A stretch of 64,000 nt of DNA from Microgenomates group bacterium (GCA_041659805.1 JBAZXP010000001.1:192589-256588), one strand, 5' to 3'; numbered from the stretch's first letter, positions 11,274 to 32,648 are shown. Numbers and translations are program-made. The notes: generated from the letters alone by a model not told the origin.

Positions 11274-12953
11274 TTATCTCTTCTCGATATTAAATAGTGG
11301 ACCGACTATTGCAATATTTGCCGGTGCCCGAACATTAAAGTAATCTTTAAAAACTTTTCCATCGAAAGTTTTTGACCCAGCATCTCCGGAAAGAGTAATC
11401 GAGGTTGTTCTTCCTGAACCAAAATCAAAATTTGTAGAGATACTATCAATTCTATTAAACGGCGTCGCTCCCTTACTACGCAGCTCACTTTTAACTTTTT
11501 CAGCATCCCAGGAATCCCAATCAGTGGTATAGGCCGAGAGTATCGCTACATTAACAATATCTGCCACTTCATCTGATTTGAGCCAGGCAGATTTATTATA
11601 TTGTGGTCTCCAACCTTGGGCATTATAAAAACAAGGAGAATCTCTGTCGTAAGCTTTACTAAACAAGTCCGCGAGGCTGTTAATATCACCATTTACATCT
11701 TTTAAGTTTTTAGTCCAAGAGGTGCTACCTCCAAAAACCTCAGATGAAGGATGGGTATAGCCTCCATCTGTTGAAGAAAACCAAGCTTTAATAGGATTAC
11801 CACCAACAACCATGGCTTTTTTGGAAGTTTCATTCACCGCCTGTTCCCAAGCCCCACCTTTAGGATCAGTCTTAAACACCTGACAATCCTGGCTGGCACA
11901 AATAGAACCACTACCTTTATTGGTATAAGCCAGCGCATACGATCTGGCGGCAATTGCCTGGGCTTTTAATGATTCTATTGGCCATGACCCAGGCACCTCA
12001 TAAATGCGTTTGGCATAATCATCCAAACTACCACTCCAATGAATGTTCGCATTACTATCATCCACTCTGATAGTGACATCAAATTCCTGATATCCATCAA
12101 AATTATAATAAGCCTTCAAAATTTGATCATAGCTTTGACCGGCATTTGCCCGACCGTATGCCCCAAATTGACTCATCCCAACACGGTGTGGAATTCCGAA
12201 TGTATAAAAAGCGAAAGCAGGCGAAAACCCTGGATCAATATTGCGATCATCTGAACAAGCCATTGAAATACCGGCTGATCTGGATAAATGTAAGCTACCG
12301 ATTCTTGCTGCAATTATTTCCTGCTGACGGGCGGTCAGTGAGGCAATTTGTTTGGTTAAGTTGGTCTGGTAATCTTTAGCCTTTTTAACTTCCCCTCCAA
12401 TAAAAGCGGCATTTTTATCAACCTCTACCTGCATAGAAGCTAAAGCTTTTTTATCTTTTTCCAGTTTGTCTTTTTGAGTAATTAAATCCAACATATCAGC
12501 AGTGACTTGTGAAATAACACTCTGGTCTTCTCGTGTGGCTGCCTGACGGTAAGAAAGCTCGCGCAGTAAATCTCCGGAAGCAGCACTGGTAAAAATCACT
12601 GTAAAAGGAGAGGCCATATAAGAACGGATGTAATAAGACCTCACCCTTTGAGAAAGTAAGGATTGTTGAACAACCAACTTATCAGTACGAATCGAAATAT
12701 CTTTTTCTTTCTGAATAATATTGGCAGATAAGACTGCCAGCTTATTTTGAATTTGAGCAAGTTGAATTTTTAAAGCACTCAGTTGTCCTTCCAATGGTTT
12801 AGTGGCTGTAACAGACATTTCTCTGGCTTTGGATAATTCATCAATTTGTGCTTGTAAATCAGAAACCTCATCAGCAAAGGCAGGGTTTAGGGTGTAGGTT
12901 ATAGTGAGTAGGGAAAAAAATAATATAACTAGGAACAGGAAAATCTTTTTCAT
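11274..12953 (-). CDS. SpoIID/LytB-domain protein with an N-terminal signal peptide and coiled coil
   Basis: HRVGMSQFGAYGRANAGQSYDQILKAYY is the SpoIID signature. The N-terminus has Q/L-rich heptads. Confidence 0.75.
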   Translation of the reverse strand: MKKIFLFLVILFFSLLTITYTLNPAFADEVSDLQAQIDELSKAREMSVTATKPLEGQLSALKIQLAQIQNKLAVLSANIIQKEKDISIRTDKLVVQQSLLSQRVRSYYIRSYMASPFTVIFTSAASGDLLRELSYRQAATREDQSVISQVTADMLDLITQKDKLEKDKKALASMQVEVDKNAAFIGGEVKKAKDYQTNLTKQIASLTARQQEIIAARIGSLHLSRSAGISMACSDDRNIDPGFSPAFAFYTFGIPHRVGMSQFGAYGRANAGQSYDQILKAYYNFDGYQEFDVTIRVDDSNANIHWSGSLDDYAKRIYEVPGSWPIESLKAQAIAARSYALAYTNKGSGSICASQDCQVFKTDPKGGAWEQAVNETSKKAMVVGGNPIKAWFSSTDGGYTHPSSEVFGGSTSWTKNLKDVNGDINSLADLFSKAYDRDSPCFYNAQGWRPQYNKSAWLKSDEVADIVNVAILSAYTTDWDSWDAEKVKSELRSKGATPFNRIDSISTNFDFGSGRTTSITLSGDAGSKTFDGKVFKDYFNVRAPANIAIVGPLFNIEKR

Positions 12954-13028
12954 GGAATGAAGTCATTATACCTTAAAGATAGTTGGCTCGTCTTGCAAAC
13001 AAAATAGGTTATTGTTAATCTAAAGGTA

Positions 13029-13439
13029 ATGTCCTTCTTATTAAAAACCATTACTTTAGTATTTTTTTCCCTAATTTTTCTTTACTCTTTTCAGCCTGTT
13101 TTTGCTGAAGCAGCTCCAGGAGGAGCAGGTCAACCTTGTCGCTATGAAGGTTCTGATGGCATTTTTACTGCGCTAGGTTGTGTGCCTGTTGAACCCTCAA
13201 AGTTTATTATGGCTGTCTCCCGACTGCTAGCCGGAGCTGGCGGGGGAGTTGCCTTACTATTGATGATTGCAGGGGCTTTTCGGATGATAACTTCCGGTGG
13301 TAATCCCGATGCAGTCAAAGCCGGATCAGAACAGTTTACTTCCGCCTTAATCGGCTTACTGTTCATTATTTTTGCTACACTGTTATTAAAGGTTATCGGG
13401 GTAGATATACTAAACCTACCTGGATTTGGAACAACATAA
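13029..13439 (+). CDS. VirB2/TrbC-like mini-protein, paralog 1 (signal peptide, two Cys, two TM helices around an SGGNPDAVKAG loop)
   Basis: Topology and the loop motif MITSGGNPDAVKAGSEQFTSALIGLLFIIFATLLL are shared with the five following ORFs. Confidence 0.55.
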   Translation: MSFLLKTITLVFFSLIFLYSFQPVFAEAAPGGAGQPCRYEGSDGIFTALGCVPVEPSKFIMAVSRLLAGAGGGVALLLMIAGAFRMITSGGNPDAVKAGSEQFTSALIGLLFIIFATLLLKVIGVDILNLPGFGTT

Positions 13440-13441
13440 TT

Positions 13442-13801
13442 ATGACACAACTACTAGCTCAAAAATTACAACTTCCCGGAGGAACAGAGGTAACATTACC
13501 TGTCGGAGGCAATTCTGCCATTGCAAGTCCCACAATCGGGGGAATCATCACTCCGGCGTTAGAGGCTGTTTTTTTGATCGCTTCTGTTTTAATGTTTGTC
13601 TGGATGGTTTGGGGAATCTTCCAATATATTTTTGCCGGCGGTGAAAAAGAAAAATTAGCCAAAGCCAGATCCCGGATTACCTGGGCTATAGTTGGTTTTA
13701 TTATTGTGCTACTTGCCTTTACTCTTTCCAGATATATACAAGAAATTTTCCCAGCTAGATCAGTGCCTATCACACCTATAACTGAACCGACAAATGATTG
13801 A
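13442..13801 (+). CDS. VirB2/TrbC-like mini-protein, paralog 2
   Basis: IFAGGEKEKLAKARSRITWAIVGFIIVLLAF, starting 3 nt after paralog 1. Confidence 0.55.
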   Translation: MTQLLAQKLQLPGGTEVTLPVGGNSAIASPTIGGIITPALEAVFLIASVLMFVWMVWGIFQYIFAGGEKEKLAKARSRITWAIVGFIIVLLAFTLSRYIQEIFPARSVPITPITEPTND

Positions 13802-14084
13802 TTTAGGACAACAATTTGGTTTTGCACTTCCAACGCTTGGTGCTGGTTTTAACCGGCTGGTCATGCCGGCTTTTGAAATTGCCGGTGTGGCAGTGATTAT
13901 TTACCTGCTTATAGGGGGGATTAAATATATGATCTCTGCAGGAGACAAGAATGCTGTTGCCTCCGCCCAACAAATGATAACTCATGCTATTATTGGTTTT
14001 ATTTTATTGATATTATTATTTGTAATAGTACAATTTGTACCGGAATTTTTTGGAGCTGGCGCACTCAGGATAATCGGAAGATGA
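13794..14084 (+). CDS. VirB2/TrbC-like mini-protein, paralog 3
   Basis: MISAGDKNAVASAQQMITHAIIGFILLILLFVIV. Overlaps its neighbours by 8 and 4 nt. Confidence 0.5.
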   Translation: MIDLGQQFGFALPTLGAGFNRLVMPAFEIAGVAVIIYLLIGGIKYMISAGDKNAVASAQQMITHAIIGFILLILLFVIVQFVPEFFGAGALRIIGR

Positions 14085-14419
14085 ACAAATTATTAGCAGC
14101 GGATTTTTCAAATATTATAGGAACAATTTCTCCTCCTGCAGCAATTAAACCCTTAGTGGACCAAGGTGGCCAAGGAGGCCTTAACACTGTTTTAAGAAAT
14201 GGTATTACCTTAATCTATCAAATAGCAATTGTTTTATTTCTTCTAATGATTCTTTTTAGCGCATTACAATGGATTATCTCCGGTGGAGAAAAAGAAAAGA
14301 TTGCTGCTGCCAGAGGAAGACTGACCAGCGCAGTGATTGGATTAGTAATCTTAGGTTTGGCTTGGGTGATTGTTTCTGTTTTAGGAACTATCACCGGAAT
14401 TAAACTGGGAGGAGTATAA
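14081..14419 (+). CDS. VirB2/TrbC-like mini-protein, paralog 4
   Basis: QWIISGGEKEKIAAARGRLTSAVIGLVILGLAWVIV. Confidence 0.55.
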   Translation: MNKLLAADFSNIIGTISPPAAIKPLVDQGGQGGLNTVLRNGITLIYQIAIVLFLLMILFSALQWIISGGEKEKIAAARGRLTSAVIGLVILGLAWVIVSVLGTITGIKLGGV

Positions 14420-14468
14420 AACTAACCACTCACTTGACAAGGTTTTTATTCTGTGCAAACATTAATTT

Positions 14469-14813
14469 ATGAGTCCTACACCAATTCCAACATTTAGCTT
14501 AAGTAATCTTGGTGTTGGCATTGCCAGCAATACCCCTATCGGAGACATTATTGGTAATGCTATCCGAATCATCATCATTATCTCTTTAATCGCAGTTTTA
14601 GCAATGTTAATCTTCGGAGCTTTTCAATGGATCATCTCAGGTGGTGAAAAAGAAAAGGTTGCTGCTGCCAGAGGAAGAATTACCAATGCCTTAATCGGAC
14701 TGGCCATTTTAGGCTTAGCTTTCGTGATTGTTACAGTAGCCGGTACTTTAGTCGGTATTAATATTTTTGAAAATATTCAAATCCCAAGCTTAGGTGATAC
14801 AACCGCAAGGTAA
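14469..14813 (+). CDS. VirB2/TrbC-like mini-protein, paralog 5
   Basis: QWIISGGEKEKVAAARGRITNALIGLAILGLAFVIV, nearly identical to the loop of paralog 4. Confidence 0.55.
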   Translation: MSPTPIPTFSLSNLGVGIASNTPIGDIIGNAIRIIIIISLIAVLAMLIFGAFQWIISGGEKEKVAAARGRITNALIGLAILGLAFVIVTVAGTLVGINIFENIQIPSLGDTTAR

Positions 14814-14855
14814 TTCTTCCTTGACCTAATTTCTTCTTTTTAGTACTGTTAAGGT

Positions 14856-15221
14856 ATGAAAAAATATCTGTCCTTTATCTTTTCTGTACTATCTCTTTTA
14901 CTCTCTGCACCCGCTTATGCAGCCACTACAGTAAATCCTCTTCCTGCCGGAAAGGATCAATTAATACAACTTATTACCAGAATTATTAATCTGGCAGCTG
15001 AGGCTGCATTCACTGTTTTGTTAATCATGATTATTTACGCAGGAATTAAGTTTCTAACTTCCGGTGGAGACCCGAAAGCAATCGGAGCAGCTTCTGGCAC
15101 TATCACATGGGCTCTTCTTGGTATTTTGTTCATGGCTATAGGTTGGTTATTCTTATTATTGATTAAAAATTTCACTGGCATTGACGTGACTAAATTCTGT
15201 CTTGATTTTCGTGGCTGTTAG
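14856..15221 (+). CDS. VirB2/TrbC-like mini-protein, paralog 6 (clear signal peptide ending AYA)
   Basis: LTSGGDPKAIGAASGTITWALLGILFMAIGWLFLL. Confidence 0.55.
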   Translation: MKKYLSFIFSVLSLLLSAPAYAATTVNPLPAGKDQLIQLITRIINLAAEAAFTVLLIMIIYAGIKFLTSGGDPKAIGAASGTITWALLGILFMAIGWLFLLLIKNFTGIDVTKFCLDFRGC

Positions 15222-15230
15222 TAATTACCA

Positions 15231-17336
15231 ATGAAATACCTGCCTTTGACCCTCTTACTTCTGATAAGTTGTTTTTTTTACATATTCCCTGGTGCAGTTA
15301 AAGCAGATGAATGTACCGGTAAAAATGTCGGCGATGCTTGTGGTGCATTCATAAGACAAATTGATGCCAACAATTGCATGCCATGCCATGGTAGCTGTAT
15401 AAACAGTGGCAGCACTTTATCTTGTAGTATGGCCGGAGGTAATGTCGGTTGTTCTCCGCAATATGCCTGCAGCGGGGTTAACCCTACCCCAACACCAATC
15501 ACTGCTCCACCCCAAGCTCAACAAGGAACTATTATTGGGGCACAAATTCCGCTTGAACAAGCACAAAGCACTATTAATCGAATGGTCCCTTCACAATATA
15601 GTTTCCAATGGCTTAAATATCAATTTTCATTAGGAAGTGGACAGAACTTAGGAGAGGCTGTAACAGCCGCAAAATCGTCTGCTGCCGGAGGAGGAAGGAA
15701 TTATAGCGTCTTGGTTTCAGTGGCAAAAAACGGTGCAGGAATTGAAACCCTAAAAAATCCTGATACTTACCCTCCTGAACAAGCTCCTGAATACTATACC
15801 CACAAATATTGTCCGTATAATGAAGAACTGGAAACATATTCTGTCAACCCTCATAATTGCGGCACTGACCTTGTTAGTGGAGAACCTCAAACCTGCTATG
15901 ATTCACAAACTGCTCAACCAAAATCAGATAACGGTTATATAAAATTCAGAGATCAGATGGAGGCATTAGCCTCAACTTTAAATTCATTAGGAGTTGAGGC
16001 GGTTGAAATCTGGAATGAGCCTAACTTAGCAGTGGAATGGACTAATCAGGGACTTGGTCCAATCAGCCCCCAAAATTATGCAAATTTTTTTATCTGTGGA
16101 GCTAAAGGCCTTAAAAAAGGTGGCTACAATGGGAAAATTATTACTGCAGCACCCTCTCCCGGTGCAGGTGGAACAGGAAATATGGATGATCTGGCTTTTT
16201 TTGATGCTTTTTACAATGAACTTAATTCCCAGGGTCAATTAGGATTAGTTGATGCTTATGGGTGGCATGGGAATGTAACAAGAGATATCTCACCCACCAG
16301 CAGTGATGTAAACGGATTTCAAAGATTCTCAAGGATACTTGGCAAAGGTAAACCTGTTTGGCTAACAGAATTTGGTTGGGATAGAAGTATTTTACCGGGA
16401 TCAGAAGAACAAAAGAGACAAAAACAGGGTCTTTATATTGCCCAGGCTTATGGCGTAATTAACAGCAACTTCTTAAATAAAGTTACAGCTATGTTTGTCT
16501 GGAATTTTGGCTTTACCAAAGCAGGGAGGACTGAAGCAGAATTTGTTGATTGGGATATAGAAGGAATTACTCCTCAAGGACGGCTTTGCCAACCAAATGC
16601 TCCCATTGACCCCAGATATAGAGGAGACCGGAGAAGCACCACTTATGTACAGGATAAATCTCTTTCGGATGATGAAATTGTTGCAACTGTGGCGGGCTTA
16701 GCCTTAGTACCAAAGACAGTAATCGAAGACGCCAACCAGAGTGCCAGGACAATTAGTCAAACCAAGGTTGATACCAAAAAAAGCTTTTACAGCAATCTTC
16801 CGTTACTTGGTGATTTTTTGAGCCAAATTGCTAACCTGATCGATTTTTTCCGCTGTATGATTGGTCAATCAGAGTTTTGTAAACCGAATTTATCAATTGG
16901 TATTGCAGAAAAGATAGAAGGAGGAACTGTTCCAGGAAAAAATACAGCCTCATTTGCGTCGGAAGCTCAAATATTAGGACAGGCCGCCATTCCCAATGGT
17001 ATGGAATTAGTTCCTGAAGAAAGAGATTGTAATATAGGATTTCAGGGAGAAGAACCGGATCCCGGTCATATCAGATTAAACACGCTTAGTGAAACAATGG
17101 GAACTACCACTGGCTTTTATGGTAATAATATGCCTGATTTCAAAACTTTAACCCCAGACGATTGGTTAAATATAATAAAAGACAGAATGCAACAGGAAAA
17201 CTTAAATATTGGCAGTAAACTATTTAATCAGGATAAAAGATCCCCTGATTTATATGTCAGAAAACAGGTGATGTGTAAAGGACTATATCCGGAAGGCATT
17301 TGTCCTTTTGAACCTTCCCCTACACCAACCATATAA
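15231..17336 (+). CDS. secreted clan GH-A (GH5-like) glycoside hydrolase with an N-terminal Cys-rich module and PT linker
   Basis: Signal peptide, then about 10 Cys within the first 60 residues after it, then a PTPTPITAPP linker. Catalytic-type motifs VEIWNEPN (acid/base NEP) and VWLTEFGW (nucleophile TE). Confidence 0.6.
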   Translation: MKYLPLTLLLLISCFFYIFPGAVKADECTGKNVGDACGAFIRQIDANNCMPCHGSCINSGSTLSCSMAGGNVGCSPQYACSGVNPTPTPITAPPQAQQGTIIGAQIPLEQAQSTINRMVPSQYSFQWLKYQFSLGSGQNLGEAVTAAKSSAAGGGRNYSVLVSVAKNGAGIETLKNPDTYPPEQAPEYYTHKYCPYNEELETYSVNPHNCGTDLVSGEPQTCYDSQTAQPKSDNGYIKFRDQMEALASTLNSLGVEAVEIWNEPNLAVEWTNQGLGPISPQNYANFFICGAKGLKKGGYNGKIITAAPSPGAGGTGNMDDLAFFDAFYNELNSQGQLGLVDAYGWHGNVTRDISPTSSDVNGFQRFSRILGKGKPVWLTEFGWDRSILPGSEEQKRQKQGLYIAQAYGVINSNFLNKVTAMFVWNFGFTKAGRTEAEFVDWDIEGITPQGRLCQPNAPIDPRYRGDRRSTTYVQDKSLSDDEIVATVAGLALVPKTVIEDANQSARTISQTKVDTKKSFYSNLPLLGDFLSQIANLIDFFRCMIGQSEFCKPNLSIGIAEKIEGGTVPGKNTASFASEAQILGQAAIPNGMELVPEERDCNIGFQGEEPDPGHIRLNTLSETMGTTTGFYGNNMPDFKTLTPDDWLNIIKDRMQQENLNIGSKLFNQDKRSPDLYVRKQVMCKGLYPEGICPFEPSPTPTI

Positions 17337-17384
17337 ATATTCAGTCTAGTTGCAAGAACCTTGTAAATTTTGTACTCTTAAGCT

Positions 17385-19103
17385 ATGTCTGCCCTACTAA
17401 GAAAAGTTGTCGGTTGTCGGTTGTCGGTTATCGGCCTGTTTTTATTTATAATATTTGCAGTTAATTTCTTTATCCTCACTCCATCTGTTTTTGCAGCTGA
17501 TAACTGGCAAAAACTAAACCCTTCTAACTATCAAGACAGAATTGCTACTCAAAGATATTTTACGAATCTGATAGTTGCAGCGAATGTGGCTATGTCCGGG
17601 GAAGATCCTTTAAACGGACCTGCTTACAGCGAAAAGGTTACAGTCACGAGTACTGATGGTGCATACAACATGAATTCAGTCCCCGGTATTGGTCCGGGAG
17701 ATAAGCAAGGAGGGATGATCGGTATGGCAACTAAATCAATCGCTTCTATAATATCCACCCGTCCAACTTCCAGCCAGGAATATCTGGCTAATTTAGGAGA
17801 GAACATTGGAATCGCTCCCAAGCCTGCTTATGCTCAGATTACTGGGTCAGGACAAAATGTCATTGATCCTGTTTTAAAACTTTGGCAGGTCACCAGAAAT
17901 ATTGCCTATACTGGTTTTATTTTGGTCTTCATGGCAGCAGGAGTCATGATCATGTTCCGCCAAAAACTTAATCCTCAAACAGTCATTGGAATTCAACAGG
18001 CATTACCAGGCATTGTGGTCGGTTTAATTTTGGTTACCTTTAGCTATTTTATCGCAGCACTCATTGTTGATTTGTCGTTTGTCGGCACCCGGCTGGTTAC
18101 TGAAATATTTGTGAGTTCAGGAGAAACTAATTACTTCGGATGCACAGTGAAATGTGAAGAGGGTGGAAATCCCAAGCAAAAAAATATAGACGGGCTTCGT
18201 CAAACTTATAAAGATTCCGATGCTTTTAATATGTTTCAAAGAGTTGCTTTAAGAGTAAATAATGTCACTGATGTATTTAGAAATGTCTGGGGAACGCTGA
18301 TCACTAATCCTGATGTCCCACCTGAACCAGAAAGCCAGGAAGCTTTACTGCAAAGACTTAGTGTAACAACACCTCTTCCAGGTGATGAAGCTGCAGTATC
18401 ATTTGCTGGAGCAGGAGGGGCAGTAATCAAAGATCAGGGAATTCAGGGAGTAGTTGCAATGGGTGTTGCAACAATCGCTTCTTTGTTGGTTCCTCTAATC
18501 TTAATGATTGCTTTAATGATTCAATTTATTAAATTAATTATCGCCTTGCTGATATCATATTTACAGATCTTGTTGATGGTTATTTTTGGACCAATCTTAA
18601 TTATGGTTTCTGCCATCCCAGGCAGAGGGGGTGCATTAAGCTACTGGTTAAAAGCTCTTTTTGCAAATGCTTTAGTTTTTCCAGCTGTTTTTGCCGGATT
18701 TTTGTTTGCCGGTTTACTTTTAGAATGGGCTGGTACCAGCGGACCTACTTTTACAGCCAACATGCCTATGTTTGGGGGGTTACATGCTAATGTCCTAAAA
18801 TCATTACTGGCTTTTGGGGTTTTGCTGGGATTACCTGCAATTCCTGATATGGTCAGAGATGCCATGGGAGTTAAAACTCCTCAAGGATTTATGAAAGCAG
18901 CTGTGGGTGGATTTATGGGTGGAATCGGAGGTGCTCAAGCAGGTTATGGTCAGGCTATGCAGCGAACTGGTCTGTCAGCAAGAAAAGAAGCTATGGAGAA
19001 AGCACAACTGGAAACGGCTGCGCACAATCGTCCTGGAGAAGGCGGACCACAAAATACAGGAGAAAGAATATTGTCTTGGTTGCCGAGTGGTGGACGACGT
19101 TAA
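17385..19103 (+). CDS. TrbL/VirB6-like polytopic membrane protein
   Basis: Signal/TM helix, a ~130-aa extracytoplasmic N-domain, about 6 TM helices, and a Gly-rich C-terminal tail (GGFMGGIGGAQAGYGQAMQ) typical of TrbL. Lies in T4SS-like context. Confidence 0.55.
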   Translation: MSALLRKVVGCRLSVIGLFLFIIFAVNFFILTPSVFAADNWQKLNPSNYQDRIATQRYFTNLIVAANVAMSGEDPLNGPAYSEKVTVTSTDGAYNMNSVPGIGPGDKQGGMIGMATKSIASIISTRPTSSQEYLANLGENIGIAPKPAYAQITGSGQNVIDPVLKLWQVTRNIAYTGFILVFMAAGVMIMFRQKLNPQTVIGIQQALPGIVVGLILVTFSYFIAALIVDLSFVGTRLVTEIFVSSGETNYFGCTVKCEEGGNPKQKNIDGLRQTYKDSDAFNMFQRVALRVNNVTDVFRNVWGTLITNPDVPPEPESQEALLQRLSVTTPLPGDEAAVSFAGAGGAVIKDQGIQGVVAMGVATIASLLVPLILMIALMIQFIKLIIALLISYLQILLMVIFGPILIMVSAIPGRGGALSYWLKALFANALVFPAVFAGFLFAGLLLEWAGTSGPTFTANMPMFGGLHANVLKSLLAFGVLLGLPAIPDMVRDAMGVKTPQGFMKAAVGGFMGGIGGAQAGYGQAMQRTGLSARKEAMEKAQLETAAHNRPGEGGPQNTGERILSWLPSGGRR

Positions 19104-22540: not shown

Positions 22541-23725
22541 ATGGAACCACATCCTATTCCACAAAATGTAACTTCTTTTGAATTCCACTTAGTAGGGGAT
22601 ATGACTCTAAAACAATTTATTTATTTAGGAGCCGGACTCGGTACTGCTTATTTACTATACGCCACACTCTTTTTTTCAATCCCTGTTTTAGCTATCCCAT
22701 TAATCCTTATTTCCAGCGTGCTTGGAATAGCTTTTGCTTTTGTGCCTATTTACGACCGGCCTTTTGATCATTGGGTTGGTGCTTTTTTCAGAGCTGTTTA
22801 TTCACCGACAAAGGGTTCCTTTAAACTAAGATCTAATCCTAAGTTAAAGGTTACTCCTAGTGATCCTTTTTTACAAAACAGGCTACAGCTATACCTTTCT
22901 TCCATGGGAATGACTGTTAATCTTTGGGATAAGCAAATTCCGACTGCACCTGCCACATCTACCCCCACTCCAACACCAGCAATCCCTGAGATTAAGGAGA
23001 TTAAAGAATCAGAAAAACAGGCTACCTTAGCAGAAAATATCTTAACTAAAACTTTAGGGAATATCCAAGCCCAAGCTCAACCGGAAAGTACCAGTCATCT
23101 ACCTTCCCAACAGGAATTAACAAATCTAGTGGAGATGGCTAGACAAGCACAAGTCTTGCAGGGAAAAATATCTGATACAGAAAAATTAATTAAACAGATG
23201 ACAACCACAACTAAGCAGACAGAAACAACCCAGATTCAGTCCAGTTTAAAAGCTCTCTTACAACAAACAGAAGAGTTATACCAAAAAACTTCCAGCATGA
23301 CTCAGGCAACAACACATACAACTGCTGCCCAACAACTGCCGCAAACAGTACCGATAACACCGGCCCCACCTATTTTAACTCAACCGGCAGTTGCTCCGAA
23401 GGTAACAATAGTCCAACCTTTGGCACACAAGGAAACGCAGGTAGTTTTAACCTCAACTCCGAATGTTATTAACGGCATTGTCGGTGATGATGCCGGAAAT
23501 TTCCTGGAAAATGTCATCGTAATTATTCACGATAAAGACGGAATGCCTGTCCGGGCTTTAAAAACAAATAAATTAGGCCAGTTTGCAGGAGCGACACCTT
23601 TACCTTTAGGTGTTTATACAATCACCCTGGAAAAAGAACATTTTACCTTTCAAACATTACAAATAACGCTTGATAATTCAGTGCTTGGACCTCTTCGAAT
23701 AGTTGCTAAAAGAGGAGGACAATAA
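22541..23725 (+). CDS. PrgI/VirB3-like two-TM N-terminus fused to a long Gln/Thr-rich coiled region and a C-terminal carboxypeptidase-regulatory-like beta-sandwich domain
   Basis: N-terminus FEFHLVGDMTLKQFIYLGAGLGTAYLLY resembles the PrgI family (FGLTLRQF...). C-terminus GIVGDDAGNFLENVIVIIHDKDGMPVRALKTNKLGQFAGATPLPLGVYTITLEKEHF. RBS AAAGGA before the ATG. Confidence 0.5.
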   Translation: MEPHPIPQNVTSFEFHLVGDMTLKQFIYLGAGLGTAYLLYATLFFSIPVLAIPLILISSVLGIAFAFVPIYDRPFDHWVGAFFRAVYSPTKGSFKLRSNPKLKVTPSDPFLQNRLQLYLSSMGMTVNLWDKQIPTAPATSTPTPTPAIPEIKEIKESEKQATLAENILTKTLGNIQAQAQPESTSHLPSQQELTNLVEMARQAQVLQGKISDTEKLIKQMTTTTKQTETTQIQSSLKALLQQTEELYQKTSSMTQATTHTTAAQQLPQTVPITPAPPILTQPAVAPKVTIVQPLAHKETQVVLTSTPNVINGIVGDDAGNFLENVIVIIHDKDGMPVRALKTNKLGQFAGATPLPLGVYTITLEKEHFTFQTLQITLDNSVLGPLRIVAKRGGQ

Positions 23726-23726
23726 T

Positions 23727-24632
23727 TTGACTACCAGCCAAGAATTTATTCCGATTAGCGATGTCAGTAAAAATTTAGTATTTCAAAAAGACGGATCTGT
23801 AGCAATTATCCTCTCTGTCTCAGCCGTTAATTTCGCACTTCTGTTTGAAACTGAACAAATTTCCATTATTGATTCATTCGCAGGTCTTTTGAATTCCTTA
23901 TCCTTTCCCATTCAAATTGTAATTTATTCCAAAATCATGGACGTTTCTTCCTATTTGCATACAATTGACAATGCCCTTGCCCGTCAAGCCAACCCTCTAC
24001 TTAAATCAATGACCTTAAAATACCGTGATTTTGTGGAAAAAAGCATTAAAGATAACAATGTTCTGGATAAAAGGTTCTATGTTTGCATTAAATTAACGTC
24101 TTTAGAATTAGGTCTACTTCCTTCCAATATGGAAGAAAAAACAAAAAAAGTTACAACACTCCTTGAACCAAGACGGGACCATTTGATCAGACAACTAGAC
24201 CGACTTGGCTTAAAGGCAAAGCAGCTAACAACAGAGGAAATCATTAAATTATTTTATGAAATCTATAACCCGCCCATTACAACAAGTGCTGACTTACCTG
24301 TACAAAGCAATGTCAAGGCTACTCCCTTATTGGAAATCCATCAGCCACCCGCCAACCCTCCGACGGACGCACCAAGGGTAGAAAATAATCTGCCGCCAAA
24401 ACTCCGGCCGATTAAACCGGCTTTGACTCAACCGAGCATTCCAGCACCTGCTGTAAAACCGACAGCTCAAACAACGATTCTTGTTCCGGTCGCCACGGCA
24501 GCACCGGTAGTGACGGTTCCAATCACACAACCGCCAGTCAATCCGACACCAACGCCTATCCTTAACCAAGCCGCTCCGCAACACAATAGCCCTTTTGTGG
24601 TAGAAGAGCTACCTGATGACGATGGATCCTAA
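23727..24632 (+). CDS. VirB4/CagE/TrbE-family protein, N-terminal portion, ending in a Pro/Thr/Ala-rich tail
   Basis: FIPISDVSKNLVFQKDGSVAIILSVSAVNFALLFETEQISIIDSFAGLLNSLSFPIQIVIY matches the N-domain of Gram-positive VirB4 homologs. TTG start at 23727 preceded by an AGAGGAGG RBS. The track ORF begins at an upstream in-frame TTG at 23703. Confidence 0.6.
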   Translation: MTTSQEFIPISDVSKNLVFQKDGSVAIILSVSAVNFALLFETEQISIIDSFAGLLNSLSFPIQIVIYSKIMDVSSYLHTIDNALARQANPLLKSMTLKYRDFVEKSIKDNNVLDKRFYVCIKLTSLELGLLPSNMEEKTKKVTTLLEPRRDHLIRQLDRLGLKAKQLTTEEIIKLFYEIYNPPITTSADLPVQSNVKATPLLEIHQPPANPPTDAPRVENNLPPKLRPIKPALTQPSIPAPAVKPTAQTTILVPVATAAPVVTVPITQPPVNPTPTPILNQAAPQHNSPFVVEELPDDDGS

Positions 24633-26379
24633 GCAAAAACAACTAACATTTGAAGATGCAGTGGCACCCTATGAAATGGAGATGGATTTTTCGTTCCTAA
24701 AAATTAATCACCGCTATTTACGTTCTTTTTTTGTATCTGCTTATCCCCGTTATGTTGAACCAAACTGGCTGGAACCGTTAATTTCTTTTGAACATTCAAT
24801 GATTTTATCCATGTTCATCTACCCCACCAGCTCAGCCGGAATCTTAGATGATTTAAAAAGAAAAATTGCGGAAATGGAGGCCACTATCCAAACTGATCTA
24901 GAACGGGGACGAGTTGTTAATCCAACTGTAACAATAGCACTTGATGACGCCAAGCAGTTACAGGAACAACTAGCTAAAGGCTCGGAACGATTTTTCCAGT
25001 TTAGTTTATATATCGATGTCCCTGCAGATTCCATAGAAGAGCTAAACAATAAATCACAATTAGTCCAATCCACCCTGGGTAGTATTTCAATTACTTCGCA
25101 TCCGTTAATGCTCCAGATGAAAGAAGGGTTTGAAAGCACTTTGCCTTTGGGACAAGACCCTTTGTATTTGGCACATAATATGGATACCACCTCTCTTGCC
25201 ACCACTTTTCCTTTTGTCTCATCAGAGCTTACTTCTCCGGACGGAGTAATCTATGGCATTAATGCACATAACGATTCCTTAATTATTTTTGACAGGTTTA
25301 GTCAGGAAAACGCCAATTCAGTAGTTTTTGCCACAGCCGGAGCCGGAAAATCTTATTTTGTGAAACTGGAATCACTGCGTTCATTGATGCTGGGCGCTGA
25401 AATAATTATCATTGATCCGGAAAAAGAATATGTCGATTTAGCCAATGCTGTGGGAGGAGATTATATTAATTTCTCTACTGCCTCCCCGGTTAAAATCAAT
25501 CCTTTTGACTTGCCTGATATAGCCAACAGCGAAGAAGACGAGTTGGGAAGAAAGATTTTATCTTTAACCGGTTTTTTAAGGTTGGTTTTAGGCGATTTGA
25601 CTGCCAATGAAGTTGCAGTTTTAGACCGGGCTTTAAATGCCACTTATAAATTAAAAGGTATTACTGCCAATGTTTTTAATAAAGCTGACCCTACCAGTAA
25701 ACAAAAAATCGAAGCTCCGTTAATGGAAGATTTATATAAGATTTTAATCGGTATGGAAGACACTATGGCTGGCAGTCTGGCAATCCGTTTGGAAAGGTTT
25801 ATTAAAGGCTCTTTGGCAGGCATTTTTTCTGCCCAATCCAATATCAATATCAATAACCCTTTTACTGTTTTTTCGGTTCGTGAATTGCCTGATCAACTGC
25901 GACCTTTGGCAATGTATTTAATATTGGATTATATTTGGACCAAAATCAGACGCGAGATTAAAAAAAGAATTTTAGTAGTGGATGAAGCCTGGTATATGAT
26001 GAAGTATCCTGATTCAGCTTCTTTTTTAGTGGAGATGGTCAAGCGGTCCCGAAAATATTACCTGGGTGTCACCACCATATCTCAGGATGTGGAAGACTTT
26101 TTAGGGCAAGACCGGGGTAAGGAAATTATCTCCAACTCAGCTATGCAAATTTTATTAAAACAAGCGCCTGTTTCCATTGAAAAAATAGGAGCTGTTTTTA
26201 ATCTGTCTCAAGGAGAAAAAAGACTACTAACCACTGCAGGTGTCGGACAAGGGCTCTTTTTTGCAGGCAATGTGCATATTGCCATGTCAATTGTGGCCTC
26301 AGATGAAGAACATCAGCTGATCACTACTAACCCAAGAGAAATTTTAGAACGCCAGGAAAAAGAAAAAGGAGATAAATAG
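24616..26379 (+). CDS. VirB4/CagE/TrbE-family ATPase, central and C-terminal portion
   Basis: AYPRYVEPNWLEPL, Walker A ATAGAGKSYFVK, Walker B RILVVDEAWYMM. Overlaps the upstream ORF by 17 nt in the +1 frame. Confidence 0.8.
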   Translation: MTMDPKQKQLTFEDAVAPYEMEMDFSFLKINHRYLRSFFVSAYPRYVEPNWLEPLISFEHSMILSMFIYPTSSAGILDDLKRKIAEMEATIQTDLERGRVVNPTVTIALDDAKQLQEQLAKGSERFFQFSLYIDVPADSIEELNNKSQLVQSTLGSISITSHPLMLQMKEGFESTLPLGQDPLYLAHNMDTTSLATTFPFVSSELTSPDGVIYGINAHNDSLIIFDRFSQENANSVVFATAGAGKSYFVKLESLRSLMLGAEIIIIDPEKEYVDLANAVGGDYINFSTASPVKINPFDLPDIANSEEDELGRKILSLTGFLRLVLGDLTANEVAVLDRALNATYKLKGITANVFNKADPTSKQKIEAPLMEDLYKILIGMEDTMAGSLAIRLERFIKGSLAGIFSAQSNININNPFTVFSVRELPDQLRPLAMYLILDYIWTKIRREIKKRILVVDEAWYMMKYPDSASFLVEMVKRSRKYYLGVTTISQDVEDFLGQDRGKEIISNSAMQILLKQAPVSIEKIGAVFNLSQGEKRLLTTAGVGQGLFFAGNVHIAMSIVASDEEHQLITTNPREILERQEKEKGDK

Positions 26380-28166: not shown

Positions 28167-28168
28167 AA

Positions 28169-28672
28169 ATGAATAATAAAGATTTAAAACGGATAATTCT
28201 TATAGGGATAACCAGTTTTTTCGTGGTAATTGTTTTAATCTCGCTTATAATTAGTCAATTTTTTACTGAGAAACAACCTGCTCCATCTACTACTGTTCCA
28301 ATTACCACAATCACTCCTACACAAAAACCTCTCCCGAGCCAATTCGGAATAGAAGAGACTACTCCAAGTGAAGATACTTCTATTATCTATTTTCCTAATC
28401 AACAAATAGGTTTTACTTTTAATAAAAGCGTTGATGCTGATTCCGTGATTTATTCAGTTACTCCAAATGCTCCGGTAAACATTAAGTTAGATATAAACTC
28501 AAACAGAACTGTAGTTTTTACTCCTAAAACAACTTGGCAAAAAGGTATTACAACCATCACAATATTGCCACAAACAAAAGCCCTTGATGGTCAATTATTA
28601 AACCAGTCTTTTGTTTATAAACTTAATTCTGAGTTCCCGTCTAATCCGCCTGCTGACTGGAAAGGTTATTAA
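28169..28672 (+). CDS. N-terminally anchored protein with a bacterial Ig-like (SbsA/Big-like) domain
   Basis: TM helix, a TTVPITTITPTQKP linker, and a beta-rich domain with FTF.. and VVFTP motifs. Start moved to the ATG at 28169, downstream of the previous stop. Confidence 0.45.
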   Translation: MNNKDLKRIILIGITSFFVVIVLISLIISQFFTEKQPAPSTTVPITTITPTQKPLPSQFGIEETTPSEDTSIIYFPNQQIGFTFNKSVDADSVIYSVTPNAPVNIKLDINSNRTVVFTPKTTWQKGITTITILPQTKALDGQLLNQSFVYKLNSEFPSNPPADWKGY

Positions 28673-28675
28673 TAT

Positions 28676-29146
28676 ATGCCGAATTTAAGTATAAAACAAA
28701 AAATTATAGGAATAATTGTAGTTATTGGCACAATATTAATCTTAATTTTTAAAGGAGGAATTTATTCAAAACCAGCTGAGAATTTAGATAAGACTTTTAA
28801 CAATCCCACACCCACAACTATTCAAACTGACACCCCAGAAATCATTTCTACCAGCCCCTCACCTTTAGATAATTCTTATATCTGGGGGACAACAGCAATT
28901 TCAATTACTTTTAATCTACCAATAGAAAACATCCCGGAGCTTAAATATAAATTCGAACCGGCGTCAAACATTAAAACAGATCTTTCAAATGATAATAAAA
29001 CAGTGACGTTTACACCCATTGAACCTTTAAAGCTGGGCTCTGAATATCTTTTAACAATCCCTGCAGAAGCAAAATTTCTGGGTAAAAAAACATTAGGAAA
29101 AAGCTATATTTTTCACATAAGGACGATTGAGTACAAAGGGGTCTAA
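28676..29146 (+). CDS. second N-terminally anchored Ig-like-domain protein (paralogous architecture)
   Basis: TM helix, a PTPTTIQTDTP linker, and ISITFN...VTFTP motifs. Confidence 0.45.
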   Translation: MPNLSIKQKIIGIIVVIGTILILIFKGGIYSKPAENLDKTFNNPTPTTIQTDTPEIISTSPSPLDNSYIWGTTAISITFNLPIENIPELKYKFEPASNIKTDLSNDNKTVTFTPIEPLKLGSEYLLTIPAEAKFLGKKTLGKSYIFHIRTIEYKGV

Positions 29147-30249: not shown

Positions 30250-30255
30250 TAATTT

Positions 30256-30708: not shown

Positions 30709-30818
30709 GCTTATCCACTTACAAAGCAGTTCTAGTTCTCTCTTTATTTATACAGCTGTAGTATTACTAGGGTCTGTTAAGATGTGTATTCACAGCCACA
30801 ACCCAGCTTCAGGTTACT

Positions 30819-30966
30819 TGGGGATAAGGATAAGTGTAAAACTTAAACCTAGTTATCCCCTCTCTTGGACTTTTTTAACCACAACTTTTCGCCTACTCTT
30901 CGTGTGTAAAAAGTATATCACAACTGTGGATAAAGTGGTGGATAACTTTAAGAGTTTTGGGGATAA
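30819..30966. promoter_or_regulatory. cluster of DnaA boxes (candidate oriC part 1) between dnaA and the downstream nuclease/dnaN genes
   Basis: Perfect TGTGGATAA at 30925..30933. One-mismatch GGTGGATAA at 30937..30945. TGGGGATAA at 30819 and 30958. TTATCCCCT at 30853. Confidence 0.6.
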
Positions 30967-30978
30967 GTGTGTTGAAAG

Positions 30979-32313: not shown

Positions 32314-32375
32314 AAATTCTTGATGGGTAAATCGAGGCAGAACCAGAACTCATTGGGGCTATCATAGTGAAAAAG

Positions 32376-32608: not shown

Positions 32609-32648
32609 TCATCAGCAGTCAGCTTTCAGTCGTCAGGCTAAAAATAAA

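What the first reader, a model, noticed from the sequence alone, without database searches (positions are those of the whole stretch)
13029..15221. Six tandem, strongly diverged pilin-like paralogs with a conserved SGGEKEK loop
Six consecutive ORFs of 96-136 aa share one architecture. A signal peptide or N-terminal extension leads into hydrophobic helix 1, then a short conserved loop, then hydrophobic helix 2. The loop reads (Q/A)(W/Y)I(I/F)SGG(E/D/N)(K/P)(E/D/K)(K/A)(I/V/L/A)(A/G)xARxR(I/L)T.A(L/V)IG.

Paralogs 4 and 5 are nearly identical in the loop, while the N-terminal and extracellular parts are highly variable. Gene boundaries overlap or abut (ATGA-type junctions), implying a single operon.

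This is the VirB2/TrbC pilin topology. Six diversified copies suggest variable surface subunits, perhaps for host-range or antigenic variation, or a heteropolymeric filament. The conserved loop motif itself may define a new subfamily.
Basis: seen in the sequence. Interest (0 to 1): 0.75.

Follow-up and report, generated by a model that had tools for sequence, protein, structure and literature searches.

The report
Patescibacterial six-gene T4SS pilin array
Six adjacent small membrane-protein genes are old, diverged copies of the "type IV secretion pilin" family that ultra-small Patescibacteria keep beside their secretion machinery; such arrays are already published, so this is a new example, not a new kind of system.

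Summary
Six co-oriented ORFs (13029-15221, 96-136 aa) share a two-helix hairpin with a conserved inter-helix loop. Five of six exceed the Pfam gathering score for PF18895 (T4SS_pilin), and NCBI already names two of them "pilin".

They lie 7 genes upstream of a PrgI/VirB3-like, TrsD-like and VirB4 (CD1110-type) cluster next to dnaN/dnaA, in a Microgenomates (Ca. Daviesbacteria-like) chromosome. This matches a published kind: 441 VirB2-like arrays of 2-11 genes in Patescibacteria (PMC12102498), and an essential series of pilins (six per a later review) in S. epibionticum (PMC10633639).

What this analysis adds:
- The six are ancient orthogroups kept in the same order p1→p6 in nine other complete arrays and two partial ones. 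Orthologs are 67-82% identical against 34% for paralogs, and dN/dS is 0.05-0.4.
- p2 and p3 are fused into one protein in at least 20 lineages.
- p1 is a conserved pilin core that elsewhere carries a hypervariable 250-600 aa Cys-rich ectodomain.
- The closest named outside relative is a Mycoplasma-ICE "pilin-like" family, not diderm VirB2.

This favours a co-assembled heteromeric structure over interchangeable antigenic variants. No pilus has yet been seen in any Patescibacterium. Verdict: new member of a known kind, moderate interest.

The parts
13029..13439 (+). p1: pilin-like protein with signal peptide (cleavage predicted after VFA, residue 26), a short Cys-pair ectodomain (C37, C51), then the hairpin core. 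Orthologs elsewhere carry 250-600 aa hypervariable Cys-rich ectodomains.
   Evidence: PF18895 34.4 bits; hydropathy; core of orthologs 75-89% identical among four genomes; ectodomains of 254-599 aa are mostly non-homologous. NCBI: hypothetical protein WCV81_00030.
13442..13801 (+). p2: leaderless pilin-like protein, loop QYIFAGGEKEKLAKARSRIT. Fused to p3 in other lineages.
   Evidence: PF18895 42.8 bits; NF045849 E 1.1e-8; 20 p2-p3 fusion clusters; NCBI name 'pilin'.
13794..14084 (+). p3: shortest pilin-like protein (96 aa), overlapping p2 by 8 nt. Its start coincides with the residue after the AxA-type junction of the p2-p3 fusions.
   Evidence: PF18895 29.4 bits; NF045849 E 3.9e-6; alignment A5.
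14081..14419 (+). p4: leaderless pilin-like protein, loop QWIISGGEKEKIAAARGRLT, ATGA overlap with p3.
   Evidence: PF18895 48.7 bits; 100% identical to NCBI 'MAG: pilin [Microgenomates group bacterium]'; AF2 hairpin with helices 29-66 and 71-105, pLDDT 75.
14469..14813 (+). p5: leaderless pilin-like protein, closest paralog of p4 (57% on the core).
   Evidence: PF18895 34.0 bits; identity matrix. Orthologs in L029 and L030 carry full signal peptides.
14856..15221 (+). p6: pilin-like protein with signal peptide (AYA|A after residue 22) and a conserved C-terminal Cys pair (C115, C121).
   Evidence: PF18895 24.3 bits, just under the 26.6 cut-off; TrbC 18.1 bits; orthologs 72-83% identical; 106 bits against the six-orthogroup profile.
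15231..17336 (+). Secreted 701-aa Cys-rich protein with a glycoside-hydrolase catalytic-core match, 9 nt after p6. Candidate envelope- or host-wall-degrading partner (inferred).
   Evidence: PF11790 23.1 bits against cut-off 21; signal peptide and 19 Cys; a gene of 622-728 aa occupies the same position in L001, L002 and L005; no PDB relative.
17385..19103 (+). Polytopic membrane protein (signal or anchor segment plus at least 5 hydrophobic segments). VirB6-like candidate by topology and position only.
   Evidence: Hydropathy; a gene of 531-577 aa at the same position in L001, L005, L028, L029 and L030; no Pfam, NCBIfam or PDB hit.
22541..23725 (+). PrgI (VirB3-like) membrane protein with a C-terminal CarboxypepD_reg domain.
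   Evidence: PF12666 33.7 bits against cut-off 27.
23703..24632 (+). TrsD / VirB4-N-terminal-like protein, a separate ORF overlapping virB4 by 17 nt.
   Evidence: NF041427 TrsD E 2.1e-6; NF045975 E 1.4e-10; PF11130 E 8.5e-6.
24616..26379 (+). VirB4-type T4SS ATPase (CD1110 / MPF_FATA type).
   Evidence: NF045971 379.7 bits against cut-off 325; NF045975 269 bits; PF19044 87.9 bits.
26379..29146 (+). Three further membrane-anchored proteins of the cluster: a 595-aa protein with 2 TM segments and a Cys/His-rich C-terminal ectodomain, and 179- and 156-aa single-pass proteins, one with a Big_5 Ig-like domain. Roles unknown.
   Evidence: Hydropathy; PF13205 33.7 bits; weak IcmG/DotF match E 4.5e-4.
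11274..12953 (-). Divergently transcribed secreted SpoIID-domain protein, syntenic with the array in relatives. Possible peptidoglycan-remodelling partner (inferred).
   Evidence: PF08486 52 bits; same position in L001, L005, L029 and L030.

Best explanation
The six genes are a conserved operon-like array of PF18895 'T4SS pilin' proteins. They belong to the chromosomal, origin-proximal, monoderm-type (MPF_FATA-like) type IV secretion system of a Microgenomatia (Ca. Daviesbacteria-like) Patescibacterium.

Shown here:
- Family membership, the two-helix hairpin and the T4SS neighbourhood.
- The six are six different, ancient orthogroups, each under purifying selection.
- They keep the fixed order p1-p6 across Daviesbacteria-type genomes.

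Inferred mechanism:
- Each protein inserts into the cytoplasmic membrane with both ends outside and the loop inside. In p2, p4 and p5 that loop is basic. p1 and p6 use a cleaved signal peptide; p2-p5 insert as leaderless N-out hairpins.
- The membrane pool is then extracted and polymerised at the VirB4/TrsD/VirB3-like/VirB6-like machine, as VirB2 is in classical T4SSs.
- All six co-assemble into one heteromeric pilus or envelope-spanning conduit. They are not interchangeable variants.
- p1 is the specificity subunit. Its pilin core is conserved, while in most relatives its N-terminus displays a large, hypervariable, Cys-rich ectodomain that would contact the host cell. The window's p1 is a minimal version of this.

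By extension from the cultured Saccharibacterium S. epibionticum, the structure probably serves host attachment or exchange rather than conjugation. No relaxase or coupling protein is nearby.
For: Family:
- PF18895 above the gathering score for 5 of 6, with p6 just below.
- A profile of the six finds 74,650 cluster representatives at E <= 1e-3.
- NCBI names p2 and p4 'pilin'.

Fold and topology:
- Two hydrophobic segments in each; signal peptides only in p1 and p6.
- AF2 hairpin.
- Every Cys lies in a predicted outside tail: p1 C37/C51 and p6 C115/C121; p2-p5 have none (sequences).
- The K/R-rich loop of p2, p4 and p5 fits the positive-inside rule.
- Signal peptides come and go within an orthogroup, as expected if the N-terminus is outside either way.

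Context:
- PrgI/VirB3-like, TrsD-like and VirB4 (379.7 bits) lie 7 genes downstream.
- dnaN and dnaA follow directly, with the cumulative GC-skew minimum at 30-32 kb. This is the origin-proximal placement reported for Microgenomatia (PMC12102498).
- No VirD4 or relaxase among the ORFs of at least 100 aa that were scanned, which is most of the non-overlapping ones.

Non-redundancy and co-assembly:
- Same-position orthologs are 67-82% identical; within-genome paralogs are 34%.
- The order p1-p6 is kept in L001, L002, L005, L019-L023, L029 and L030, and in the partial array of L017.
- dN/dS is 0.05-0.4 for all six.
- Junctions p1/p2, p2/p3 and p3/p4 are overlapping or 2 nt apart.
- p2-p3 fusions occur in gene order in 20 distinct 90% clusters. 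They are uninterrupted ORFs under table 11. The model shows two hairpins joined by a disordered linker.

p1 as specificity subunit: core 55-89% identical, while the 250-600 aa ectodomains are mostly non-homologous, hold 7-19 Cys and match no Pfam domain.

Literature:
- Pilin genes in the T4SS cluster of S. epibionticum are essential (PMC10633639).
- That cluster encodes six sequence-divergent VirB2-like pilins (PMC12857230).
- 441 arrays have been found across Patescibacteria (PMC12102498).
Against: - No T4SS pilus has been seen in any Patescibacterium. The family name is a prediction (PMC12857230, PMC11665869).
- Sequence homology to experimentally defined VirB2/TrbC pilins is not demonstrable here. 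PF04956 is below its cut-off, hhalign probability is 1-18%, and there is no PDB relative.
- Fold searches return only generic helical hairpins.
- Heteromeric co-assembly is inferred from comparative genomics, not observed.
- Fused proteins with 6-17 hairpins are hard to fit into a classical helical pilus. They may point to a membrane-embedded role instead.
- The loops of p1, p3 and p6 are not basic.
- The VirB6-like and hydrolase roles of the neighbouring genes are guesses.
Confidence: 0.6

Rival explanations
1. Interchangeable variant subunits. The six copies are alternative major pilins used for antigenic or host-range variation, as proposed for the VirB2 paralog arrays of Bartonella and Anaplasma.
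For: - Exposed N- and C-tails diverge fastest: 30-67% against 82-95% for the loop.
- The p1 ectodomain is hypervariable between genomes.
- Paralogs are very divergent.
- The published paper suggests the same.
Against: - 1:1 orthology and a fixed gene order across genomes whose orthologs are down to about 40-50% identical.
- All six are under purifying selection.
- There is no sign of recent duplication or gene conversion; the closest pair, p4/p5, is only 54-57% identical.
- Junctions are tight or overlapping.
- p2-p3 occur as a single polypeptide in many lineages.
- The pilin series is reported as essential in S. epibionticum.
Confidence: 0.13
2. Not a filament. The hairpins are integral-membrane building blocks of the T4SS translocon, forming a ring or stalk in the epibiont membrane. 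Alternatively, they are hairpins delivered into the host membrane to form a pore. The second version echoes the earlier annotation of six putative effector genes in the T4SS region of TM7x, which may be the same array.
For: - No pilus has been observed.
- Monoderm T4SSs normally lack pili.
- The family includes single proteins with 2-17 consecutive hairpins, that is 4-34 TM helices, which look like polytopic membrane proteins.
- The nearest named relative is a small ICE membrane protein of wall-less Mycoplasma.
- TM7x was described as having 'six putative effector genes' in its T4SS region.
Against: - Both termini are predicted outside, and the termini and ectodomains evolve fast. This pattern suits a surface-exposed polymer more than a buried ring.
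- p1 orthologs display ectodomains of up to about 500 aa.
- Weak but co-linear similarity to TrbC/VirB2.
- In fusions the hairpins are joined by long disordered external linkers carrying an AxA motif, compatible with processing into monomers.
Confidence: 0.22
3. Unrelated small membrane proteins, such as holins, bacteriocins or immunity proteins, or type IV (T4P) pilins, that merely neighbour the T4SS.
For: Small size and two hydrophobic helices are common to many such families. There is no positive tool evidence.
Against: - No PHROG family matches at E <= 0.01.
- Pfam and NCBIfam give no holin or bacteriocin hit. The only consistent hits are T4SS pilin-type families.
- There is no prepilin-peptidase G|F(T/S)LxE motif in any of the six sequences.
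- Linkage to the VirB4 cluster is conserved in relatives.
Confidence: 0.02

Closest known systems
VirB2-like pilin arrays of Patescibacteria (Quinonero-Coronel et al. 2025, PMC12102498), including the essential pilin cluster of Ca. Southlakia epibionticum ML1 (Wang et al. 2023, PMC10633639; described as six pilins in PMC12857230)
   Same: - Same Pfam family (PF18895).
- Tandem array within the published range of 2-11 genes (here 6).
- Low paralog identity: about 25% on average published, 34% here on the core.
- Located near virB4, trsD and prgI of an MPF_FATA-like T4SS.
- No relaxase or T4CP nearby, and close to dnaA and dnaN.
- Arrays are reported as especially abundant in Microgenomatia.
   Different: This is a different lineage (Daviesbacteria-like Microgenomatia). 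The accessible text of those papers does not describe the fixed p1-p6 orthogroup order, the p2-p3 and higher-order fusions, the hypervariable p1 ectodomain, or the link to the Mollicutes ICE protein. Whether the six Saccharibacterial pilins correspond one-to-one to p1-p6 was not tested.
TrbC/VirB2 conjugative pilins of diderm T4SSs (PF04956; Agrobacterium VirB2, RP4 TrbC)
   Same: - Small protein with two hydrophobic helices joined by a short loop.
- Encoded in a cluster with VirB3- and VirB4-type genes.
- Weak co-linear profile similarity: PF04956 at 16.9-18.1 bits; hhalign over 61 columns at E 0.0014.
   Different: - Below every significance threshold, so homology is unproven.
- The loop is about 7 residues longer.
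- Four of the six lack the long cleaved leader.
- Six co-conserved paralogs stand in place of one major pilin.
- The organism is a monoderm, and there is no VirB5, VirB1 or VirB7-11.
- No pilus has been observed.
Mbov_0395 / MMCAP2_0565 family pilin-like conjugal transfer protein of Mycoplasma ICEs (NCBIfam NF045849)
   Same: - It is the best named match outside PF18895: p2 E 1.1e-8, p3 E 3.9e-6, and 14 of 24 orthologs at E <= 0.01 with near full-length coverage.
- The accompanying VirB4 and TrsD also match the Mycoplasma ICE ATPase model NF045975.
- Both hosts are monoderms with MPF_FATA-type systems.
   Different: Scores are below the family cut-off (34.6 against 40), so these are not members. 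The Mycoplasma proteins belong to mobile conjugative elements and, as far as I know, are single-copy. Here the genes are chromosomal, sixfold and not linked to a relaxase.
VirB2 paralog arrays of Bartonella and Anaplasma (as cited in PMC12102498)
   Same: Tandem amplification and divergence of T4SS pilin genes in a host-dependent bacterium.
   Different: Those arrays are interpreted as antigenic variation of true PF04956 VirB2. Here the copies are ancient, ordered orthogroups under purifying selection.
Major and minor pilin operons of type IV pili (analogy only)
   Same: Several diverged pilin-like subunits are encoded together, with one subunit carrying a large adhesive domain. This gives a model of an initiation or tip complex plus a major subunit.
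   Different: The family and fold are unrelated. There is no class III signal peptide, and there are two TM helices instead of one N-terminal helix plus a globular head.

Membership tests
Pfam PF18895 T4SS_pilin | Score at or above the family gathering threshold (26.6 bits) | tested here: met
   p1 34.4, p2 42.8, p3 29.4, p4 48.7 and p5 34.0 bits. p6 scores 24.3 bits, just below, but is clearly homologous: 106 bits to the six-orthogroup profile.
Pfam PF18895 T4SS_pilin | Two-helix hydrophobic hairpin of about 70 residues | tested here: met
   Hydropathy; AF2 helices 29-66 and 71-105 in p4; matches cover positions 2-71 of the 71-position model.
Patescibacterial VirB2-like pilin array (PMC12102498) | At least 2 pilin genes (PF18895 or PF04956 hits) in tandem or separated by one gene | tested here: met
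   Six consecutive genes with nothing between them.
Patescibacterial VirB2-like pilin array (PMC12102498) | Located within 20 CDS of a Patescibacteria-clade (MPF_FATA-like) virB4, with TrsD and PrgI | tested here: met
   virB4 (24616-26379, NF045971 379.7 bits) is the 7th gene after p6. TrsD-like and PrgI genes lie directly upstream of it. VirB4 phylogenetic placement was not computed.
Patescibacterial VirB2-like pilin array (PMC12102498) | Host genome is a Patescibacterium | tested here: met
   Proteins are identical to 'Microgenomates group bacterium' entries on a 1.13-Mb contig. The nearest relatives are Ca. Daviesbacteria.
TrbC/VirB2 pilin (PF04956) | Profile score above the gathering threshold (27.9 bits) | tested here: not met
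   Best scores are p6 18.1 bits and p4 16.9 bits; the other four have no hit.
TrbC/VirB2 pilin (PF04956) | Detectable homology to experimentally defined VirB2/TrbC by profile-profile comparison | tested here: inconclusive
   hhalign against 8 annotated VirB2/TrbC sequences gave probability 4.6% and 1% with small alignments. A 375-sequence domain alignment gave 17.6% (E 0.0014, co-linear over 61 columns). A PDB sequence profile search found nothing.
TrbC/VirB2 pilin (PF04956) | Long N-terminal leader cleaved by signal peptidase | tested here: not met
   Only p1 and p6 have a signal peptide. The ORFs of p2-p5 cannot be extended upstream.
TrbC/VirB2 pilin (PF04956) | Assembles into an extracellular pilus (with phospholipid); cyclisation in some members | not testable with these tools
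   Needs microscopy or biochemistry. No Patescibacterial T4SS pilus has been reported.
NCBIfam NF045849 Mbov_0395-family pilin-like conjugal transfer protein | Score above the curated cut-off (40 bits) | tested here: not met
   Best is p2 at 34.6 bits (E 1.1e-8); p3 scores 26.5 bits. 14 of 24 orthologs match at E <= 0.01. These are related proteins, not members.
Type IV pilus (T4P) pilins | Class III signal peptide with a G|F(T/S)LxE motif and a single N-terminal hydrophobic helix | tested here: not met
   The motif is absent from all six sequences, and each has two hydrophobic helices.
Phage holins / bacteriocins | Profile match to a holin or bacteriocin family | tested here: not met
   No PHROG hit at E <= 0.01. 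No such Pfam or NCBIfam hit.

The most novel reading that the evidence does not exclude
The array is not a set of variants but an obligate six-component pilus or conduit, with three features:
- A modular first subunit (p1) that swaps host-binding ectodomains.
- Subunits descended from, and in some lineages still made as, poly-pilin precursors of 2-17 hairpins. These would be cut at AxA junctions by signal peptidase, or built into the structure as covalent multimers.
- An origin together with the monoderm MPF_FATA machinery, shown by the relationship to the Mollicutes ICE pilin-like protein, rather than capture from a diderm T4SS.

If so, some monoderm T4SSs ancestrally had a pilin.
Probability: 0.3. 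Interest if true: 0.65.

Novelty: new member of a known kind. Interest (0 to 1): 0.35.

Why it matters
Patescibacteria make up a large share of bacterial diversity and appear to live by attaching to other cells. In the one genetically tractable species, the T4SS and its pilin genes are essential, yet what they build and what passes through it is unknown.

This window adds a clean, complete example from Microgenomatia. Comparison with its relatives yields testable constraints:
- Six non-redundant subunits in a fixed order.
- A natural p2-p3 fusion that predicts direct contact between those two subunits.
- A first subunit whose displayed domain changes from genome to genome, making it a candidate host-specificity determinant.

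These points can guide AlphaFold-multimer modelling, proteomics and CRISPRi or knock-out designs in cultivable relatives. In itself the finding does not reveal a new type of system.

Tried and rejected
- Foldseek of the p4 model against the PDB: no hit at E <= 1e-3. The A. pernix conjugation pilus 8dfu appeared only at rank 10 with E 7.4.
- PDB sequence-profile search with alignment A3: one chance bacteriorhodopsin hit at E 0.73.
- hhalign of small pilin alignments against eight genuine VirB2/TrbC sequences fetched from plasmids: not significant. A deeper 375-domain alignment raised this only to 17.6% probability.
- The search for related loci with all six paralogs failed because no stretch was conserved enough. 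It worked with p4, p5 and p2 only.
- tblastn of p2 against 72,556 plasmids: no match at E <= 1.
- PHROGs: no hit.
- phmmer against the PDB for the neighbouring 701-, 572- and 595-aa proteins: nothing. Their VirB1- or VirB6-like roles remain guesses.
- The promoter and terminator scan of 12800-17500 found no more sites than shuffled sequence: 9 against 12.8 promoter-like and 6 against 4.3 terminator-like. Operon structure therefore rests on gene spacing and synteny only.
- The weak Pfam hits of p2 and p5 to WLS-like_TM, SUR7, Fig1 and similar families are all below their cut-offs. I treat them as hydrophobic-helix noise.
- dS is saturated (>1 in most pairs), so the dN/dS values are only qualitative.


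Full report
**1. What is in the sequence**

Between 13029 and 15221 the + strand carries six consecutive ORFs of 136, 119, 96, 112, 114 and 121 aa. I call them p1-p6.

- A multiple alignment shows a shared core: hydrophobic helix, a loop of about 20 residues, then a second hydrophobic helix.
- Only one loop Gly and the T..A..G at the start of helix 2 are invariant.
- Kyte-Doolittle profiles give two hydrophobic segments in each protein. p1 and p6 also have an N-terminal signal-peptide-like segment.
- The likely cleavage sites, read from the sequence, are VFA|E after residue 26 in p1 and AYA|A after residue 22 in p6.
- p2-p5 have non-hydrophobic N-tails of 20-40 residues. Their ORFs cannot be extended upstream.
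- The string SGGEKEK is exact only in p4 and p5. p2 has AGGEKEK, and p1, p3 and p6 have SGGNPDA, SAGDKNA and SGGDPKA.
- Junctions are a 2-nt spacer, an 8-nt overlap, an ATGA overlap, then 49-nt and 42-nt spacers. The next gene follows p6 after 9 nt.
- A profile scan of all six-frame ORFs of at least 50 aa finds these six and no other pilin-like ORF in the 64-kb window.

**2. Family assignment**

- All six hit Pfam PF18895 (T4SS_pilin), five above the gathering score. PF04956 (TrbC/VirB2) is hit only weakly by p4 and p6, below threshold.
- PHROGs gives nothing.
- NCBIfam's only consistent hit is NF045849, the "Mbov_0395 family pilin-like conjugal transfer protein" of Mycoplasma ICEs. p2 scores E 1.1e-8 and p3 E 3.9e-6, both below the 40-bit cut-off. 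Across four genomes, 14 of 24 orthologs match at E <= 0.01.
- p4 is 100% identical to an NCBI protein named "MAG: pilin [Microgenomates group bacterium]" on a 1.13-Mb contig. p2 is also named pilin. p1, p3 and p6 are "hypothetical protein" WCV81_00030, _00040 and _00055.
- A profile of the six finds 74,650 50%-identity cluster representatives at E <= 1e-3. This is a very large family.

**3. Fold**

- AlphaFold2 on p4 with 21 sequences gives a helical hairpin: helices 29-66 and 71-105, mean pLDDT 75.
- To test homology with real conjugative pilins, I fetched eight annotated VirB2/TrbC genes from plasmids and ran profile-profile comparisons.
- Small alignments gave probability of at most 5%.
- A 375-sequence non-redundant domain alignment gave a co-linear 61-column alignment: helix 1 to helix 1, a loop shorter by 7 residues in VirB2, and helix 2 to helix 2. 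The probability was only 17.6%, E 0.0014.
- Homology to VirB2 is thus suggestive at best. The VirB2-like label rests on topology and genomic context.

**4. Genomic context**

- Downstream of p6 lie, in order: a secreted Cys-rich 701-aa protein with a glycoside-hydrolase-core match (PF11790, 23.1 bits against 21); a polytopic 572-aa membrane protein (VirB6-like by topology only); and two unknown minus-strand genes.
- Then come a PrgI/VirB3-like protein, a TrsD-like protein and a VirB4 ATPase of the CD1110 / Mycoplasma-ICE type (379.7 and 269 bits). Three further membrane-anchored proteins follow.
- dnaN and dnaA follow directly, with yidC beyond them. The cumulative GC-skew minimum lies at 30-32 kb.
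- No VirD4-type coupling protein or relaxase appears among the ORFs of at least 100 aa that I scanned, which covers most but not all of the non-overlapping ones. The surroundings are housekeeping genes such as SmpB, tRNA synthetases and GroEL.
- This matches the published description of Patescibacterial T4SS loci: MPF_FATA-like VirB4 with TrsD and PrgI, few relaxases or T4CPs nearby, and dnaA/dnaN proximity in Microgenomatia (PMC12102498).

**5. Prior knowledge**

- PMC12102498 reports 441 VirB2 arrays of 2-11 pilin genes in 383 assemblies. [quoted passage not shown] The paper speculates about adaptation to different host strains.
- Wang et al. 2023 found a series of predicted pilins inside the essential T4SS cluster of S. 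epibionticum.
- A 2025 review describes that cluster as six structurally conserved, sequence-divergent VirB2-like pilins. It notes that a pilus would be unprecedented for a monoderm T4SS.
- The function is stated to be unknown.

The kind of feature is therefore known. The window holds a new example.

**6. What comparison adds**

*(a) Orthogroups and order*

- Syntenic six-gene arrays occur in Ca. Daviesbacteria GCA_028687915.1 and several other MAGs and metagenome contigs.
- Same-position proteins are 67-82% identical over the last 95 residues. Within-genome paralogs average 34%.
- Assigning every pilin domain in 14 loci to its best orthogroup shows the order p1-p2-p3-p4-p5-p6 in nine other complete arrays: L001, L002, L005, L019 (with p5 duplicated), L020-L023 and L030.
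- Two more arrays keep the order but are incomplete or interrupted. L017 ends after p5 at the contig edge. L029 has two genes inserted between p4 and p5.
- A Beckwithbacteria-type locus (L028) has seven pilins in a roughly co-linear order.
- dN/dS is 0.05-0.4 for every orthogroup, though dS is saturated.
- Among orthologs the loop is the most conserved part (82-95%) and the outside tails the least (30-67%).

*(b) Fusions*

- Among the 119 newly returned listed hits of a profile search, 20 distinct 90% clusters are single proteins made of a p2-like domain followed by a p3-like domain.
- Examples translate without stops under the standard code.
- Their AF2 model is two hairpins joined by a disordered linker at residues 117-140.
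- Gene fusion of neighbours is classical evidence that the two products act together.

*(c) p1 as a modular subunit*

- The p1 core is 55-89% identical across genomes.
- Between the signal peptide and the core, relatives carry 250-600 aa ectodomains with 7-19 Cys. These have no Pfam match and are mostly not homologous to one another.
- The window's p1, and that of its closest relative, is the minimal form. It keeps only the conserved C-x13-C loop before helix 1.

*(d) Signal peptides*

Signal peptides are present or absent within the same orthogroup in different genomes. This is expected if the N-terminus ends up outside the cell either way.

**7. Mechanism proposed**

*Shown:* family membership, the hairpin, the T4SS neighbourhood, six conserved ordered orthogroups, the fusions and the variable p1 ectodomain.

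*Inferred:*

- Topology is N-out, C-out with a cytoplasmic loop. The support is that every Cys lies in the predicted outside tails, and that the loop is basic in p2, p4 and p5.
- The VirB4-type machine extracts and polymerises the pilins, by analogy with VirB2. This comes from established knowledge of Agrobacterium VirB4 and VirB2, not from a test here.
- The six co-assemble into one heteromeric pilus or conduit, with p1 as the host-contact subunit.

I put about 0.9 on the identification and about 0.5 on heteromeric co-assembly into an extracellular structure.

**8. Rivals**

- *Interchangeable antigenic or host-range variants.* This fits the variable tails. It conflicts with orthology, fixed order, purifying selection, tight gene junctions and the fusions.
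- *A purely membrane-embedded role, or insertion into the host membrane.* This remains a serious alternative. No pilus has been seen, and some family members are single proteins with up to 17 hairpins.
- *Holin, bacteriocin or T4P-pilin readings.* These are excluded by profile searches and by the absence of the relevant motifs.

**9. Verdict**

The topology and the heteropolymer idea hold. TrbC membership, the "new subfamily" claim and antigenic variation do not.
- Novelty: a new member of a known kind.
- Interest is moderate to low for the array itself. The comparative details (ordered orthogroups, p2-p3 fusion, modular p1, poly-pilins and the Mollicutes link) may be useful leads for groups working on the Patescibacterial T4SS.

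Noticed in passing
L016:1777-3435 (P0020); also P0067, P0061, P0058 (protein ids): Single ORFs encode many consecutive pilin hairpins: 6 in P0020 (552 aa), 10 in P0058, 11 in P0061 and 17 in P0067 (1775 aa). P0020 translates without stops under table 11 and sits inside a further pilin array. Such 'poly-pilins' are not mentioned in the accessible text of the Patescibacteria T4SS paper.
   Followed up: partly
L017:3234-3887, L029:4549-5220; alignment A5; window 13794 (start of p3): The junction of the p2-p3 fusion proteins is conserved as ...P..L..TAYA|(A/Q)VDIG..., an AxA-type signal-peptidase-I-like motif about 20-25 residues after helix 2 of the p2 half. The window's separate p3 starts exactly at the residue after it. 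The N-termini of p2, p4 and p5 and their orthologs read M-x-x-[LV]-[LFI]-A-[AQEK], as in MTQLLAQ, MNKLLAA and MIQEVLAA. These look like remnants of the same site. This suggests either a split of an ancestral precursor or a short propeptide.
   Followed up: partly
L002:7538-9310, L019:2896-4311, L021:1622-3169, L017:1651-3237, L005:5181-5945: p1 orthologs carry large (up to about 500 aa) Cys-rich N-terminal ectodomains. These have no Pfam match and are mostly unrelated between genomes, while the C-terminal pilin core is conserved. They are candidate host-specificity modules.
   Followed up: partly
L025:4926-7115, L026:4926-6929, L027:4971-5531 (one contig of Ca. Daviesbacteria isolate 22E.vamb.044): Three genes within about 20 kb encode an N-terminal p2-like pilin hairpin followed by a long C-terminal extension. 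The extension reaches about 560-630 aa in the 667- and 729-aa proteins; the third protein is 186 aa. None has a Pfam match. This is the opposite arrangement to p1.
   Followed up: no
window 23703-24632 and 24616-26379: The VirB4 function is split into a TrsD-like N-terminal protein and a VirB4 ATPase that overlap by 17 nt. This matches the TrsD + VirB4 arrangement reported as typical of Patescibacteria, so it is not a frameshift artefact.
   Followed up: yes
window 29149-34035: dnaN (29149-30249, -), dnaA (30979-32313, -) and yidC (33187-34035, +) lie here, together with the cumulative GC-skew minimum at about 30-32 kb. The T4SS cluster therefore abuts the replication origin.
   Followed up: yes
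L002:4987-7386: In one relative, a block of toxin-antitoxin or defence-type genes (AbiEii, DUF433, DUF5615, PIN, PhdYeFM) is inserted between the SpoIID gene and p1. In the window only 75 bp separate those two genes.
   Followed up: no
L021, L023, L024 (record titles): Three TPA MAGs labelled 'uncultured Gammaproteobacteria bacterium' match the pilin motif patterns. L021 and L023 carry full Daviesbacteria-type six-pilin arrays, while L024 has a single p5-like pilin gene. They are probably taxonomically mislabelled.
   Followed up: no
window 1896-6493: There is a cluster of four tRNA-Ser genes (anticodons gga, cga, gct, tga) and one tRNA-Arg. tRNA-Ser(tga) at 6405-6493 overlaps the listed start of the glyoxalase-family ORF 6449-6901, so that ORF probably starts further downstream.
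   Followed up: no
window 26379-28166: This 595-aa protein has a charged cytoplasmic N-half, two TM segments and a Cys/His-rich C-terminal ectodomain (...FHHTKPG...EEHVHVQIG...). By eye it recalls metallopeptidase motifs, but it has no Pfam, NCBIfam or PDB match.
   Followed up: partly
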